Assembly (NCBI GenBank): GCA_040954595.2 | Contig: CM082592.2 | Location: 3,860,735-3,924,734, forward strand | From: Balanoglossus misakiensis | Lineage: Eukaryota; Animalia; Hemichordata | Direction: 5' to 3' | Length of the DNA: 64,000 nt | In this document: in pieces, positions 44,605 through 53,570 of the stretch | How the letters are laid out: every line of letters starts with the position of its first letter | Numbering within the stretch: the first letter of the stretch is position 1 | The notes under the pieces: model-generated | The model's input: the letters and a program-made list of their open reading frames with translations, nothing else | Told to the model about the DNA's origin: nothing | The model's database searches: none | Program-made: the position numbers and the translations under genes

Positions 44605-47600
44605 ATGCCGCAAAAAGCCCACGTGACCATCGCAACAATACACTGTGTGTATTCGTCCCGGGATGCCGGGATATTCCTGAAGTTGGTCGGGGACTCGGCG
44701 GAGTCTGACTTCATTCGACTTGATGAGGTAGGTATGAAAAATACGAGGGCGACCTATCAGACAGGAATTCAAAACCAACGCCCAAAACCCGGTGAGTGCG
44801 CGCAGCAAACATTACCCGAGTCAGACGGACGTGAACAGTCGTTTATTGTATATGTGCCGTAAATCTCATTCGTGTCGCTTACAACACGCGTTTAAATAAT
44901 AAGTATGCGTATAACCCTCTTTTTTCTTAATTAAATACAGCTAAAGGGTCTATATGTTAACGCGCTGGTCCAAAGTCTTCCGAGATACTTGCAATAGTTT
45001 ATCTGATCACAAGTGGTTTTGCATAAGCTCTCCTTACTGATTTGTTGTGTTGACGAGTTCCCTTGTTCAAATGTTCCGTGGCTATATACAGTGCAGTTGT
45101 TATATACTGACGAAAATCTTTAATCACCCACGCTACTACCCGCAATTCTTCCCGTATTGTGTTGTCCTAAAACAGATCTAGACATTACTAATCTCATTCG
45201 ACTCGCTGTTTCTGAAACGTTTTAGCCAGCATTTTATCAGTGGCCTATGATACTGGTTCCATCATCTCCTCAAACTTTCATTATTTTTAGAAACCTCTCT
45301 TTAGTAAATTAGTATAAAATATTTGTTCGCTACGTCATACAGTTGTCATAAAACAGTCCCACAGATAGGTTCAATACTTTACGGAGAGTAAGGCAAGACT
45401 ATCTTTCAAGAATCTGTTGCCTGCGATCAAGCGTTTGGGTCACATTCGTTGTTCTGTACACACCGGTACATGACCGCGACATCTTGAATAATATCAGGCC
45501 TAGCGACAACCCTGGCACGCAGACACCAATATTTCATACGTGACCCGCTGACCCCGAACTGACACACACAGCCCACTTATATCACGGTCACTCTACGGTC
45601 AGTGGTTACACGTACTAGTATTTGTCCGGTATTACTGAGCACAGAATATTGACTACACAAAAATGGGGCATATATTATATATTACTTCATAATGTATTGA
45701 TTATTTAATTATAACCCTATCATATTTATAAAGATATTACATAAAAAAGAAAACAAACGTTTGCTTTTGATTTTAGTAGGCGATAACAGAAGTATTCGGC
45801 TGCCAAAATCAACAGGTTGTCGACAGCTTAGTTTGTCGTCTGTCGCGCACAGTCTTACATGCGCAGCGGAACAGTTACACTTTTCAACTATTCGACATGC
45901 TTTGAAACGTGTTTGACTCTCAACTTTTACGTACTGCTTTGGTAGGAATGCGAAACATTTACCTTCTTTGTTTTTATTGTTTGTCTGGGTTTGACCCGTT
46001 CTGCTCTACTTCCTCTGTGTTCAGAAGGAGTTTCCCAACTTAGGGTTACTGCCACACTTACATGTAATTTATCACATACAATGTCACCGTGCAGGGAACG
46101 GTCAAATGTCAGGGATATTGACGTTGCTGTAGGCACTGGGAGAGGGTCTATACCAACTGGCATCATAAAGTTAGCCCTTTTTAAGCTCACAATTAAATTC
46201 AACTACACATCCAACAACTAGACATTACCAGATATGTACTGAATATGCCACACCCACGTGCTTGTACTTTCGTGTCATTATAGTTTACAAATATGAACTT
46301 GGACAGTGACTGAATCCATCAAATATGCAAATTGGTATAGTCTTCTAAAATTAATATTCATATCTTTTGTCTGTCGTGGTCATGATTATTGTAAGAAGTC
46401 GTTAGAAATGAAAGTCAAGCGCTGCTTTGTTTTGTGAAGTGTTTTATAGGAATTCTAAAGAGTACGCTTTATTCAGAAACGCCTTTTATTAACAATACAC
46501 ATTCCTGTCAGTTGTTGGCAATTTTCTTCCTGGAAGGACTCTATCGTGAAAGAATCAAACAAAGGCAACGTTATCTACAATTACACATTTATCATCTCAA
46601 CATTCAGGCACTTTTCACCTGTCGCCAAGATAGTTGTACATGTTGAAATACGGTTGGAAACTAGCCATATTTTTTTGCGCTCGAGGTCGCGTACACAATG
46701 CTTCAAATATTTGTAAGGTCGAGTCTTGTACAGGCTGAACAGAAATGTTGATAAAACAACGTGTTATCTTTCTAAAGCGCATTTTTTCTGTCAAAATGAA
46801 ACACAAACCCGAGAAGAAGGGTGACGTCATGTGTAATACATTCCTATTCTCATTCAGCCTGAGGGTGGATGGCCGCATTCCCCTCTTTTGCGAAAATGGG
46901 AGAGAAATCCCGTGGAGACTTTCTTACCCGTGCATGGAGACAAGAAGGCGAAGAAGAAAATCGAAGAAGGGAAACAAACATTCAGGATCAAACTTCCAGA
47001 CAACTTTCCACTGAGACAAATACAGAGGCTTGAAATTGGTAAGCCAAGTCAATTTATTTAGAATATGACGTCATCTTTTAAATGTTCGATATACATGACG
47101 TGCAACTTATATATACCATCGAGGTAGAAGTGAAGCCTTTTTGTAATGGTAATTTCACCATGCTACTTTCGCTGTACAGGTTTCGACCACTCTCGGTTCG
47201 TCGATGGGTGGCTCATTGGTAAAATAACTGTGGATGATTTACACGGGACTAAGATAGACTTCAACGGGCCGTCAAGTTTAGGAGCCTGGCACAACGGAAA
47301 GTTGGTGCTCATTCGCGATGCGCCTACAACGGAGCCAGTGAGTAACAACATAATATGATGTGATTTTTAGCCAGTTTCCATTTTCGTCGCCAATTTTGAT
47401 GCGTATTTGCCCTCTGTGTAGATCGATTATCTCATCCAGATGTGAACTTGTGTTTTACATACTAATAAACCATTTTTCGGACTCTACGAGAACCCGCGAT
47501 ATCTCGCGTGACTAGGAGGATATTCACGTGTGACACAGGGCAAACAGCACATGGCCCATTGTATTAAACGGCACACAAGTTAAAAATTCCGTTAAAGGCG

Positions 47601-50600: not shown

Positions 50601-53570
50601 CTTCAGTACACAGACTTGTCTTTGAGCCGTACACAGTGTGACACCTAGCCCTGCGTACAGGTCTGTGTGCTCCCGGCGTTACACGACCTCCACCGTGTAA
50701 CACCGCGAACACACAGACCTGTATGCAGGGCTATGTGACACCGCGCTTGTGACCATTTGTAAACGTATCAACGGTTTTTCTCTCCTCTCGCCTCCCCTTC
50801 CCTCTCTCTCTCTCTCTACCCTCGTCCGTCCCCGTCTCTGTCTGTATGTCTGCTGTCTGTCTGTCTGCTTGTTTCTCCCTCTCCCCTCTCCCTCCTCTCC
50901 TCTCTCCCTCCTCCCCCCTCTCTCTCTGCATCTGCCCCTAGCTCCAGCACCATCAATATCGGCCAGCATTCGGTGCAGTGGATAAACCCACCGGCAGAGG
51001 ACGAAAGAGAGCCGAGCGTGGATCCCGGTCCATTCTCGTATGTCGTCACATTTGGAGATATCTGTTTCTTGGTAATCAAAGCGTTAACGTCAGATCCTAA
51101 CCAACATCTCAAAATCACGAAACACCACACCACACCACACCACACCACACCACACCACACTACACTACACTACACTACACCGCACCACACCACACCACAC
51201 CACACTACACTACACTACACTGCATTGCACTGCACCGCACTGCTCTATGCACTAGTACACGACAGAATATAATTCCCATTTCCACGAAATCTTCAATGAG
51301 TACCCCCTGCTGTACAAGACCTTTCAGGTCCATTTCTGGTCGTTCCAATACCCTACCTGTGATTCTTCAGGGGCGACAGTTTACTGACAGTTACATGTAC
51401 ATATGCATGTTTCCGACCTCAGATTTTCTTCTTTTGCTATCTTGACTACCGGTGATGAACTTAGCCAACTTACGTGTCTTGTACAAGTGAAACCCATGAT
51501 GTCTGCATGTATCCATCAGTCGGCTGATTGAAGTTATAATGTCATATATTTTGTACAGTACCTTATTTTGTTTGTTTATCTCAGATGATAGACAACCGAT
51601 CCGAGCGGCAGTTCGACCAAGTGATGAGCACGGAATCCTGGGAGGCATTTGTGGAGGTGTTGAATGTGCTCCGCGGAGTGAAGCACATCTTCCTCGTCAT
51701 CGCAGTGCCGGTCCTGTATGCAAATTTCAGCTCCATGATATCTCTCTTCAGAAAACTACCAATGGAAAGACTCAGGGTGCGTGTATTTTAAAAAAAGCTT
51801 CCATTTTGGCCGACATTTTTCTACCGGCCATGCATGTGTCGTGACGTCAATACTTAGAAACATACGGTCAGTCACCTATGGAAAGTTGGCTGTAGTTACC
51901 ATGGCAAATTGAGATCTAGCCAATCGTCGTTTCAGGTCTTAAGCAAAGTCGTCTTTGAAGTTGCTTCGTCTCGTTGTCGTTTTGTTTAGATGGTTTTGGT
52001 ATTTTCTTTTTTTTTCAGAATCTTGAATATGACATCATCGACCACTGGGCGACACCGCATCACGATTACGAAAGGCGGCGTCTCATCAAGACGTTGCTGG
52101 ACTACTGCAAGGACACCGACACCAGAGTCACCGTGTTGTCGGGCGACGTCCATGTCGGTTGCTGGGGGCGAGTGGAATCCGACAGTGGCGTCGCCATCGA
52201 CATGGTGACGTCATCTGCCATCGTTAATAACCCGCCGCCGGGGGTGAGCCAGAGTTAGATGTTTTTTTTGTTTTTTTTGATGATTTCCCACGTGACCGAA
52301 TCGCGTATGCGCCTCAAAAATCAGTCTTAAATTTTCCCTCATATTTTGCTTAAGAGAATTTAGGATATCCTTTCTAAAAATTGAGAATAAAATTGAGGGT
52401 CGTCGTGCCAATTTTTGAATGACGGAGCATAATTTCCGCAAATTGTCTCAAATTCGAAATTCAAAATGGCCGCCAACCTGTGTGCTGGGTCTATGGAGAA
52501 AATTTAAATGAGCGATTTTCATGAAACAAGACGGAGCACACCCAGTTTTCTGTATTTTCAAACAGACATTAATATAGCAAAGCAATCGAAAAGTTTGGAG
52601 GACTATAATTAAAATTTGTCCAAGAGGAACGTTCTACATTAATGATTGGTAAGAATTTAACACTCTACGCCTATTAAAGGTATACGGTCACATAAGGAAA
52701 TTTAGCTACAGTTACCATGGCAAACTGAGATCTAGCCAATCACGGATTTTCAGTGGGTGGCACACGCGAAAAAAAGAGCGCCACCGTATGTTCTTTAGAA
52801 CCCTCAAATACGCCATTTCAGCCATATATGGGTGTATGTAAATTGGAGGTGACTGTATAGTGACGCGTCTGTCACATGTACCAACAGCCCCAGCATGCAT
52901 GCAGCAGTTTACTAAAGTTTCGCGTATATTTCTTTTCATGGAAATTTTCCTACAGATCAATGTTATAGTGAAAGTTCTTTCGGAAGACGAGAAGTTCTTC
53001 TTGCCCAGTCACGGCGAAGTCAAACTTGCACTGGAAGAGGTCGACAGTACTGATAAGGCCAAACGACTTGTGACGTCACAGAACTTTCTGGTCCTCGACC
53101 CAGAACTAGTATCGGTACGTATAAATAAATAAATACATTTCAATTTGGAAAGTATCAAGTTTAAAATGATGGTATTTCTTTCATAAATTCTTTGGGTATT
53201 GGATCATCACCAAGGCATGGAAATTTTTTTTATTTTTACTGCTGCTTTAATGTATTATTACCTGGTGTGCCTCGAAAAGTATGAAGCGAAATCATAAATT
53301 AGTTTTCAGAAGTATTAAAAAAGTAAGGTGGTTTTTCACTATACAAGGCGATTTTGGCCACATTTCATACGTTCAGAAAAAGTTGCTGAATTTTAAACGC
53401 ATTTATATTTCCTTTAATTTCCACAGGGAATGTATACAGGAAGATACCACGCCCAGTTTATCAAGAAGCCTTCAGAAACCTTCGAGAAGTCGAAGCCAAA
53501 GCACATGATTTTGAAGGAAGCGGTGAAGTTTGGCAGGATCATTGATCGCCATGCAGTTGTGTTAAAATAA
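44605..53570 (+). CDS. PLAT/LH2 domain fused to PhoD-related metallophosphoesterase, ~701 aa, no signal peptide
   Basis: 13 phase-compatible exons: 44605-44727, 46858-47038, 47180-47337, 47747-47903, 48452-48555, 48739-48990, 49545-49689, 50341-50476, 50942-51071, 51585-51776, 52019-52243, 52956-53114 (alt 53108), 53427-53570. PhoD motifs [63 protein letters not shown] pattern HVTIAT...[20 protein letters not shown]...TFRI...IQRLEIGFDH...[11 protein letters not shown]. Confidence 0.85.
48607..48681. repeat. (GAT)n microsatellite (intronic)
   Basis: Direct run. Confidence 0.95.
49135..49425. repeat. (ATTG)n/(GGTT)n compound microsatellite (intronic)
   Basis: Direct runs. Confidence 0.95.
51122..51243. 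repeat. (CACAC/CTACA)n pentanucleotide microsatellite (intronic)
   Basis: Direct run. Confidence 0.9.

What the first reader, a model, noticed from the sequence alone, without database searches (positions are those of the whole stretch)
44605..53570. PLAT/LH2-PhoD fusion: candidate membrane-targeted intracellular PhoD-type phosphoesterase in an animal
Seen: 13 exons join in frame into ~701 aa. Exons 1-3 follow the PLAT beta-sandwich pattern, with a Lys-rich insertion ([11 protein letters not shown]). The rest carries a full set of PhoD-type metal ligands ([16 protein letters not shown]-x-R-x-ER, D-H-W, GDVH), with features ([34 protein letters not shown]-x-PPP) I associate with the fungal/bacterial PhoD-related subfamily. 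There is no signal or Tat peptide. Established: PhoD enzymes are Fe/Ca phosphomono/diesterases, mostly secreted and microbial and not part of the vertebrate repertoire; PLAT domains bring lipoxygenases and lipases to membranes. Inference: a microbial-type catalytic domain domesticated (12 introns) and fused to a lipid-binding module, possibly a new phospholipid phosphatase or phospholipase D-like enzyme. I know of no description of this architecture.
Basis: partly seen in the sequence, partly recalled or inferred. Interest (0 to 1): 0.76.

Follow-up and report, generated by a model that had tools for sequence, protein, structure and literature searches.

The report
Acorn-worm PLAT–PhoD enzyme shared with protists
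This is an intact 13-exon gene, closest to acorn-worm genes, that joins a lipid-binding-type domain to a phosphate-ester-cutting domain otherwise known from microbes; the same pairing occurs in some amoebae and algae, so acorn worms likely took it ready-made from a single-celled eukaryote, and it is predicted to act on membrane lipids inside the cell.

Summary
The gene is real: 13 GT-AG exons join into 701 aa. Full-length relatives occur as multigene families in three acorn-worm genera (best 58–64% identical). A model of a 54%-identical relative gives a PLAT fold at the N-terminus (Z 9–10 to lipase and lipoxygenase PLAT domains) and a PhoD fold behind it (Z 27.6 to 2YEQ). Three corrections. 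(1) The architecture is already named: GenBank AOR07037.1, 'PLAT domain containing metallophosphatase-like protein', Saccoglossus, though I found no paper on it. (2) It is probably not an animal invention: PLAT+PhoD_2 also occurs in Cyanophora and Soliformovum. In a tree built without PLAT, acorn worms group with these protist proteins (SH-aLRT 98), apart from fungi (AU p 8e-6) and, narrowly, bacteria (p 0.045). (3) The ligand set is not quite full: the Asn272 position of B. subtilis PhoD is Gly, and this copy has Tyr at an Asp invariant in 108 of 108 non-animal hits. Best reading: a cytosolic, membrane-docking metal phosphoesterase, likely transferred from a protist and then expanded. Activity, substrate and expression are untested.

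The parts
44605..44727 (+). exon 1, aa 1-41, start codon, first PLAT strands
   Evidence: matches N-termini of P0002, P0003, P0005
46858..47038 (+). exon 2, aa 42-102: PLAT with insertion (conserved Trp-containing segment, then a variable Lys-rich linker)
   Evidence: insertion has lower confidence in the model of P0005 (pLDDT 56-64 for residues 41-70)
47180..47337 (+). exon 3, aa 102-154, end of PLAT; ends in a phase-0 intron at the domain border
   Evidence: PLAT fold covers P0005 3-142 = window protein 1-149
47747..47903 (+). exon 4, aa 155-207; start of the part shared with bacteria (GPILG motif), all-beta accessory domain
48452..48555 (+). exon 5, aa 207-241, all-beta accessory domain (FN3/Ig-like by recalled analogy to PhoD and purple acid phosphatases)
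48739..48990 (+). exon 6, aa 242-325; catalytic domain starts; Cys273 (48832-34), Asp312 (48949-51), Tyr315 (48958-60)
49545..49689 (+). exon 7, aa 326-374
50341..50476 (+). exon 8, aa 374-419; Asp375, Asp376, Asp381, Gly382 (Gly at the Asn272 position of B. subtilis PhoD, by spacing)
50942..51071 (+). exon 9, aa 419-462
51585..51776 (+). exon 10, aa 463-526; D-x-R-S-E-R motif; most hydrophobic 19-residue stretch of the protein (from aa 497)
52019..52243 (+). exon 11, aa 527-601; Tyr530 (52028-30; Asp in 108 of 108 non-animal hits), Asp534, Asp569 (52145-47), His571 (52151-53)
52956..53114 (+). exon 12, aa 602-654
53427..53570 (+). exon 13, aa 655-701 and TAA stop; no CaaX box in this copy

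Best explanation
The locus encodes one 701-aa protein with a predicted PLAT domain, an all-beta accessory domain and a PhoD_2-type catalytic domain, with no sign of a signal peptide; it likely stays in the cytosol, likely docks on membranes through PLAT, and is predicted to hydrolyse a membrane-bound phosphate ester (most likely a phospholipid head group or lipid phosphate) at an iron-plus-divalent-metal site. Shown: exon structure, frame, motifs, family membership, tree position. Predicted: folds (from a 54%-identical relative). Inferred: metal binding, by motif and spacing match to B. subtilis PhoD (Cys273, Asp312, Tyr315, Asp569, His571 for Fe; Asp375, Asp376, Asp381 for Ca); membrane docking; Ca-triggered action; lipid substrate. 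Origin (inferred): the fused gene existed in microbial eukaryotes and likely entered the acorn-worm stem by eukaryote-to-animal transfer (about 60%); it then duplicated into at least two subfamilies, one largely CaaX-tipped, with several copies losing metal ligands.
For: Gene model and full-length orthologues. PLAT above Pfam's cut-off of 23 bits in paralogues P0012 and P0013 (25.7, 26.1). AlphaFold2 model of P0005, pLDDT 88.3, pTM 0.91: residues 3-142 match PLAT of lipoprotein lipase (Z 10.2, rmsd 2.7, 115 aligned), pancreatic lipase-related protein 2 (10.2), coral 8R-, 5- and 15-lipoxygenase (9.6, 9.6, 9.3); residues 148-698 match PhoD 2YEQ (Z 27.6, rmsd 3.8, 423 aligned), the top hit also in Foldseek (E 8e-17). 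Three different membrane-targeting devices recur on the non-bacterial side of this subfamily: PLAT, C2 (P0149 Difflugia, P0168, P0253) and CaaX-like ends (6 of 12 acorn-worm proteins, 8 of 28 other rows on that side, 0 of 108 bacterial-type hits). A PhoD-family phospholipase D exists (Streptomyces; PMC13435022). Yeast YGR266W, whose name NCBI lends to Saccoglossus members, is listed at mitochondria and plasma membrane with unknown function. Tree on the PLAT-free part: 9 acorn-worm rows with 9 protist-type rows, SH-aLRT 98; grouping with fungi rejected, p-AU 7.7e-6. No named animal other than acorn worms in the best 120 of 715, the best 120 of 405, or among 30 looked-up rows of the best 150 of 2742.
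Against: No activity, substrate, localisation or expression data. The position of B. subtilis Asn272, whose loss abolishes activity, is Gly here and in 108 of 108 non-animal hits, so the third metal site must differ. This copy carries Tyr530 at an Asp that is invariant in those 108 hits and kept in its two closest relatives, so it may be weakened. PLAT is below Pfam's cut-off in the closest relatives (P0002 16.5, P0003 21 bits), and PLAT domains also serve protein-protein binding (recalled). Bacterial members have neither PLAT nor a conserved gene neighbour, so they give no substrate clue. The bacterial-sister tree is rejected only narrowly (p-AU 0.045), the tree is a quick search without bootstrap, and Cyanophora fell outside the group in the FastTree run (flagged as a long-branch join). 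Absence from other animals rests on truncated hit lists.
Confidence: 0.5

Rival explanations
1. A cytosolic phosphatase or phosphodiesterase for soluble or protein-bound phosphoesters (phosphorus recycling, nucleotide or sugar phosphates); PLAT only positions it or binds a partner protein.
For: Bacterial members lack any lipid-binding module or signal peptide yet keep the same active-site motifs; PhoD enzymes hydrolyse pNPP and diesters (PMC4223295); fold neighbours include many nucleotide and sugar-phosphate hydrolases.
Against: PLAT, C2 and CaaX were added repeatedly on the eukaryote side, which points to a membrane substrate or site; the one PhoD with a defined lipid substrate is a PLD.
Confidence: 0.3
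2. This copy is a weak or dead enzyme that works as a membrane scaffold or metal/lipid sensor, like several of its paralogues.
For: Tyr530 replaces an Asp invariant in 108 of 108 non-animal hits; 5 of 12 acorn-worm paralogues (P0007, P0008, P0009, P0013, P0014) have lost one or more core ligands.
Against: All motifs that map to known PhoD ligands, apart from the subfamily-wide Gly382, are intact; position 530 has no tested role and may be an allele or a base error.
Confidence: 0.15
3. Origin rival A: an ancient eukaryotic PLAT-PhoD gene inherited vertically and lost in all other sampled animals and in fungi (fungi keeping a different paralogue).
For: PLAT+PhoD_2 occurs in two distant supergroups, a glaucophyte and an amoebozoan, which suggests great age; no single donor lineage is resolved (acorn worms with Cyanophora only at 81).
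Against: Needs many independent losses; no other named animal among the rows examined, though vertical orthologues should score at least as well as the protist proteins.
Confidence: 0.3
4. Origin rival B: a bacterial PhoD_2 gene was transferred directly and fused to an animal PLAT in the acorn-worm line; the protist fusions are convergent.
For: Best non-animal BLAST hits are bacterial-type; bacterial proteins begin where exon 4 begins, behind a phase-0 intron; AU rejection is marginal (p 0.045); the acorn-worm PLAT profile scores protist N-termini only weakly (best E 0.002).
Against: All Pfam-PLAT-bearing rows fall in one group on a tree that never saw the PLAT domain; profile-profile alignment of acorn-worm and protist sets is collinear from residue 5.
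Confidence: 0.1

Closest known systems
GenBank AOR07037.1 / UniRef A0A1C9TA71, 'PLAT domain containing metallophosphatase-like protein', Saccoglossus kowalevskii (P0265)
   Same: Same PLAT + accessory + PhoD_2 layout; 33% identical over residues 7-673; same acorn-worm clade.
   Different: Belongs to the other acorn-worm subfamily, ends in a CaaX-like box and lacks the Trp-containing PLAT insertion. A database name only; no functional paper found.
Bacillus subtilis PhoD (PDB 2YEQ; PMC4223295)
   Same: Top fold match (Z 27.6, 423 residues aligned); Cys-type iron ligand subfamily; motifs for Fe and CaA kept.
   Different: 14% identity; secreted by Tat, has a capping C-terminal helix, no PLAT; Asn271-Asn272 correspond to Asp-Gly here.
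Streptomyces chromofuscus / S. avermitilis PhoD-type phospholipase D (PMC13435022)
   Same: PhoD-family enzyme that uses the Fe-Ca-Ca site on phospholipids: the precedent for the proposed substrate.
   Different: Secreted, no PLAT; its lipid cleft and extra Ca sites come from lineage-specific inserts; not seen in the listed fold hits, so the cleft was not compared.
Pfam PhoD_2 (PF19050), including bacterial ~500-aa proteins, fungal proteins and yeast YGR266W-like proteins
   Same: Direct Pfam hits above cut-off; all subfamily motifs shared.
   Different: Those members lack PLAT; the fungal rows form a separate branch; none has a known substrate in the papers I saw.
PLAT-PhoD_2 of Cyanophora paradoxa (P0153) and Soliformovum irregulare (P0255); C2-PhoD_2 of Difflugia compressa (P0149)
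   Same: PLAT or another lipid-binding-type module in front of the same catalytic unit; the PLAT forms group with the acorn-worm proteins.
   Different: Uncharacterised predicted proteins; about 26-27% identical to acorn-worm members; P0255 has lost several ligands.

Membership tests
PhoD_2 (PF19050) | HMM score above the gathering cut-off (22 bits) | tested here: met
   Exons 10 and 11 alone score 23.9 and 28 bits; closest relatives 83-85 bits.
PhoD superfamily | Purple-acid-phosphatase-like fold with an N-terminal all-beta domain | tested here: met
   Model of relative P0005 (54% identical): 2YEQ first by Foldseek and VIA-align. The window protein itself was not folded.
PhoD superfamily | Fe ligands Cys (or Asp), Asp, Tyr, Asp, His | tested here: met
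   Cys273, Asp312, Tyr315, Asp569, His571 present and invariant or nearly so in 108 hits. Cys180, Asp207, Asp436 are from PMC4223295; the Tyr and His positions are recalled; mapping is by motif and spacing, not by superposition.
classical PhoD (B. subtilis type) | Ca ligands Asp265, Asp266, Asn271, Asn272 (Asn272 sometimes Asp) | tested here: not met
   Asp375, Asp376 kept; Asp381 for Asn271; Gly382 for Asn272, by spacing, as in 108 of 108 non-animal hits.
classical PhoD (B. subtilis type) | Tat export signal | tested here: not met
   N-terminus is the PLAT domain; no Tat-like motif in 108 non-animal hits either (crude pattern test, no SignalP available).
PhoD superfamily | Fe/Ca-dependent phosphomono- or diesterase activity | not testable with these tools
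   Needs an enzyme assay.
PLAT/LH2 (PF01477) | HMM score above the gathering cut-off (23 bits) | tested here: inconclusive
   No hit on single exons; 16.5 and 21 bits in the two closest relatives; 25.7 and 26.1 in paralogues P0012, P0013.
PLAT/LH2 (PF01477) | Eight-stranded beta-sandwich like those of lipases and lipoxygenases | tested here: met
   P0005 residues 3-146 align to six lipase or lipoxygenase chains, Z 8.9-10.2, rmsd 2.5-2.9.
PLAT/LH2 (PF01477) | Lipid or Ca-dependent membrane binding | not testable with these tools
   Needs liposome binding or cell imaging.
PhoD-type phospholipase D (Streptomyces) | Expanded hydrophobic cleft and choline cavity | not tested

The most novel reading that the evidence does not exclude
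A cytosol-facing, Ca-gated phospholipase D or lipid phosphatase built on the PhoD fold, a lipid-signalling enzyme class not described in animals, passed ready-fused from a protist into the acorn-worm ancestor and expanded into PLAT-docked, prenylated and pseudo-enzyme copies; protists use PLAT, C2 or CaaX for the same job.
Probability: 0.25. Interest if true: 0.75.

Novelty: new variant of a known kind. Interest (0 to 1): 0.47.

Why it matters
PhoD enzymes are known mainly as exported phosphate scavengers. This subfamily appears to have turned inward and, in eukaryotes, repeatedly gained membrane-targeting modules, which gives a first testable handle on the uncharacterised PhoD_2/YGR266W group. 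If the origin reading holds, it is a eukaryote-to-animal transfer of a multidomain gene that was kept and expanded across three acorn-worm genera, of the kind Simakov et al. (PMC4729200) discussed for deuterostome genes with microbial relatives. Interest is capped because the architecture already has a database name, it seems confined to one small animal group, and no activity is shown.

Tried and rejected
No whole genome is held for the window, so paralogues in this species were not counted; within the window only this locus matches. No RNA holder was listed, so junctions were not checked on reads. The genome index did not answer, so other animal assemblies were not searched at DNA level. The first fold, on 4 sequences, was unusable (pLDDT 43). 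Sequence searches of the PDB found nothing meaningful; NCBIfam gave 0 families for 12 of 12 proteins. ESM Atlas hits were all under 0.9, leads only: PhoD_2 clusters, one mostly Rotifera, and PLAT clusters at 0.77-0.79. No gene neighbour recurs across 80 bacterial loci beyond close kin (8 loci at most). An alternative CaaX-ending last exon: one candidate acceptor at 55728, lying antisense inside a transporter exon, taken as chance. One search missed most acorn-worm members that were in its own query, so its lack of other animals is weak. Paper searches with no hit: PhoD + horizontal gene transfer + hemichordate, PhoD + PLAT domain (30), PLAT domain + metallophosphatase; searches listed nothing on this family (listings and abstract starts only). 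PMC4729200: no PhoD, phosphatase or PLAT-domain passage in the main text and no mention in two readable spreadsheets; its Supplementary Information PDF and a third spreadsheet could not be read and may describe this gene. PMC11175523: no mention in the main text. Earlier scan findings: none. Rejected: contamination (12 introns, animal neighbours, orthologues on 29-46 Mb contigs); separate PLAT and PhoD genes (single records in three genera and in protist transcript sets).

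
Full report
Observation. The + strand from 44605 to 53570 holds 13 exons. All 12 introns are GT-AG with pyrimidine-rich acceptors, and the exons join into 2106 nt, 701 aa plus stop. Independently annotated proteins match every exon in order, and the product aligns with a Glandiceps talaboti protein at 58% over residues 1-695 and a Ptychodera flava protein at 64% over 78-701. 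The window also carries typical animal genes (a seven-helix receptor-like ORF, histones H2A, H2B and H4; read by eye). It is therefore most likely acorn-worm DNA, from a species whose protein is not identical to any record returned.

Family. The best 120 of 715 hits were 12 acorn-worm proteins (6 Ptychodera, 3 Glandiceps, 3 Saccoglossus) and 108 proteins of mostly about 500 aa and 30% identity, bacterial where named. In 80 named bacterial loci the match starts at query residue 126 or later, never in the N-terminal domain. Most of the 40 N-termini printed begin at the GPILG-type motif that opens exon 4, and 0 of 108 carry a Tat-like motif. So the subfamily looks cytoplasmic already in bacteria, and the missing signal peptide is inherited. 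No gene neighbour is conserved around the bacterial genes.

Domains. Exons 10 and 11 pass the PhoD_2 cut-off alone. PLAT is sub-threshold in the closest relatives and above threshold in paralogues P0012 and P0013. The spliced window protein was not folded; relative P0005 (54% identical) was, with a 120-row alignment: pLDDT 88.3, pTM 0.91. Residues 3-142 match PLAT domains of lipoprotein lipase (Z 10.2, rmsd 2.7 over 115), pancreatic lipase-related protein 2 and several lipoxygenases; residues 148-698 match B. subtilis PhoD (Z 27.6, rmsd 3.8 over 423), ahead of purple acid phosphatases. The PLAT border coincides with the phase-0 intron after exon 3.

Active site. PMC4223295 (passages, and sections 17 and 20 read) names C180, D207, D265, D266, N271, N272 and D436 as needed for activity. 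By motif and spacing these are Cys273, Asp312, Asp375, Asp376, Asp381, Gly382 and Asp569, with Tyr315 and His571 completing the iron site (those two recalled). Gly382 is subfamily-wide (108 of 108), so the third metal site differs from classical PhoD. An invariant D-D-x-x-D motif (530, 531, 534) could supply the missing ligand; that is inference. In this copy position 530 is Tyr, against Asp in 108 of 108 non-animal hits and in P0002 and P0003. Five of 12 acorn-worm paralogues have lost core ligands.

Is the architecture new? Only partly. GenBank AOR07037.1 names a Saccoglossus member 'PLAT domain containing metallophosphatase-like protein'. Full-text searches for PhoD with PLAT domain, PLAT domain with metallophosphatase, and PhoD with horizontal transfer and hemichordate returned no paper. 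PMC4729200 (term search, section 8 and two spreadsheets) does not mention it, but its Supplementary Information PDF could not be read and may. The exhaustive profile search (best 150 of 2742) returned PLAT+PhoD_2 proteins from Cyanophora paradoxa (39 bits), Soliformovum irregulare (37 bits) and unnamed records P0139 (27) and P0146 (20, below cut-off), and C2+PhoD_2 proteins from Difflugia compressa and unnamed P0168 and P0253 (27 of the 150 scanned; names for 30 of the 150 looked up). No named animal outside acorn worms appeared, but many rows have no name and lower-ranked hits were not seen; an ESM Atlas cluster of PhoD_2 proteins is mostly rotifer (lead only).

Origin. Trees used only the part from the GPILG motif on. 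FastTree on 335 rows put the 14 acorn-worm rows (99) with seven Soliformovum-type rows and long-branched P0192 (98), inside a 44-row group (97) that also holds the C2 and fungal rows; Cyanophora fell elsewhere in a flagged long-branch join. A mixture-model tree on 61 chosen rows (P0192 and most bacterial rows left out; quick search, SH-aLRT only) grouped 9 acorn-worm rows, the 7 Soliformovum-type rows, Cyanophora and P0152 at 98. Of these nine non-animal rows, four have a Pfam PLAT match, three have an N-terminal extension without one, and two are short. Holding acorn worms with the four rows of the fungal group is rejected (p-AU 7.7e-6); holding them with bacteria is rejected only narrowly (p-AU 0.045). 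The acorn-worm and protist profiles align collinearly from the N-terminus, although the acorn-worm PLAT profile scores protist N-termini weakly (best E 0.002). I put transfer of a ready-fused gene from a microbial eukaryote at about 60%, ancient inheritance with wide loss at 30%, and direct bacterial transfer with a separate fusion at 10%. The root is not inferred, and several rows I call eukaryote-side are placed so by the tree alone.

Mechanism. Inferred: the protein folds in the cytosol, loads iron, docks on a membrane through PLAT, perhaps on a Ca rise, and hydrolyses a phosphoester by the metal-bridged hydroxide mechanism proposed for PhoD. The case for a membrane substrate is the recurrence of PLAT, C2 and CaaX-like ends: CaaX-like in 6 of 12 acorn-worm proteins, 8 of 28 other rows on that side and 0 of 108 bacterial-type hits (loose pattern); this copy has none. 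A PhoD-type phospholipase D is known (PMC13435022; abstract, introduction, start of methods and passages read). Yeast YGR266W is listed at plasma membrane and mitochondria with unknown function (one passage each in PMC7192388 and PMC13350749). Eukaryotic PhoD proteins with signal peptides and internal-membrane locations are known in Babesia and diatoms (PMC10907312, passages); no C2 domain is mentioned there. None of this tests the substrate, so confidence in the lipid reading is 0.5.

Verdict. A real gene of an uncharacterised but already named acorn-worm family: a new variant of a known kind. The added value here is the protist link, the repeated membrane-targeting modules and the altered third metal site. 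Interest 0.47.

Noticed in passing
window 3626-5191 (-) and 36576-38141 (-): Two apparently intronless ORFs that resemble each other, one with an HHxxxDG motif, like condensation-domain or alcohol acetyltransferase enzymes (recalled motif). The first is split over two ORFs.
   Followed up: no
window 60149-63056: Histone cluster: H2A (-), H2B (+), H4 (+), read by eye.
   Followed up: no
window 26412-27560 (+), 31310-31747 (+), 39051-39395 (-), 55631-58373 (-): A single-exon seven-helix receptor-like ORF, a TNF-receptor-like Cys-rich exon, a sialyltransferase-like exon and an MFS-like transporter gene (read by eye).
   Followed up: no
P0004, P0011, P0012, P0013, P0014, P0265: Six of 12 acorn-worm family members end in CaaX-like boxes; the window's copy does not.
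   Followed up: partly
P0007, P0008, P0009, P0013, P0014: Paralogues in two genera have lost metal ligands and look like conserved pseudo-enzymes.
   Followed up: partly
P0149, P0168, P0253, P0318: C2 + PhoD_2 fusions, one named from the amoeba Difflugia, form a branch separate from the PLAT group.
   Followed up: partly
P0185, P0211, P0213, P0224, P0227, P0246, P0261: Unnamed PhoD_2 proteins near the fungal branch end in CaaX-like boxes, some on long metagenome contigs; their hosts are unknown.
   Followed up: no
window 52028-52030: Codon TAT (Tyr530) where the subfamily has Asp; could be a real change, an allele or a base error.
   Followed up: partly
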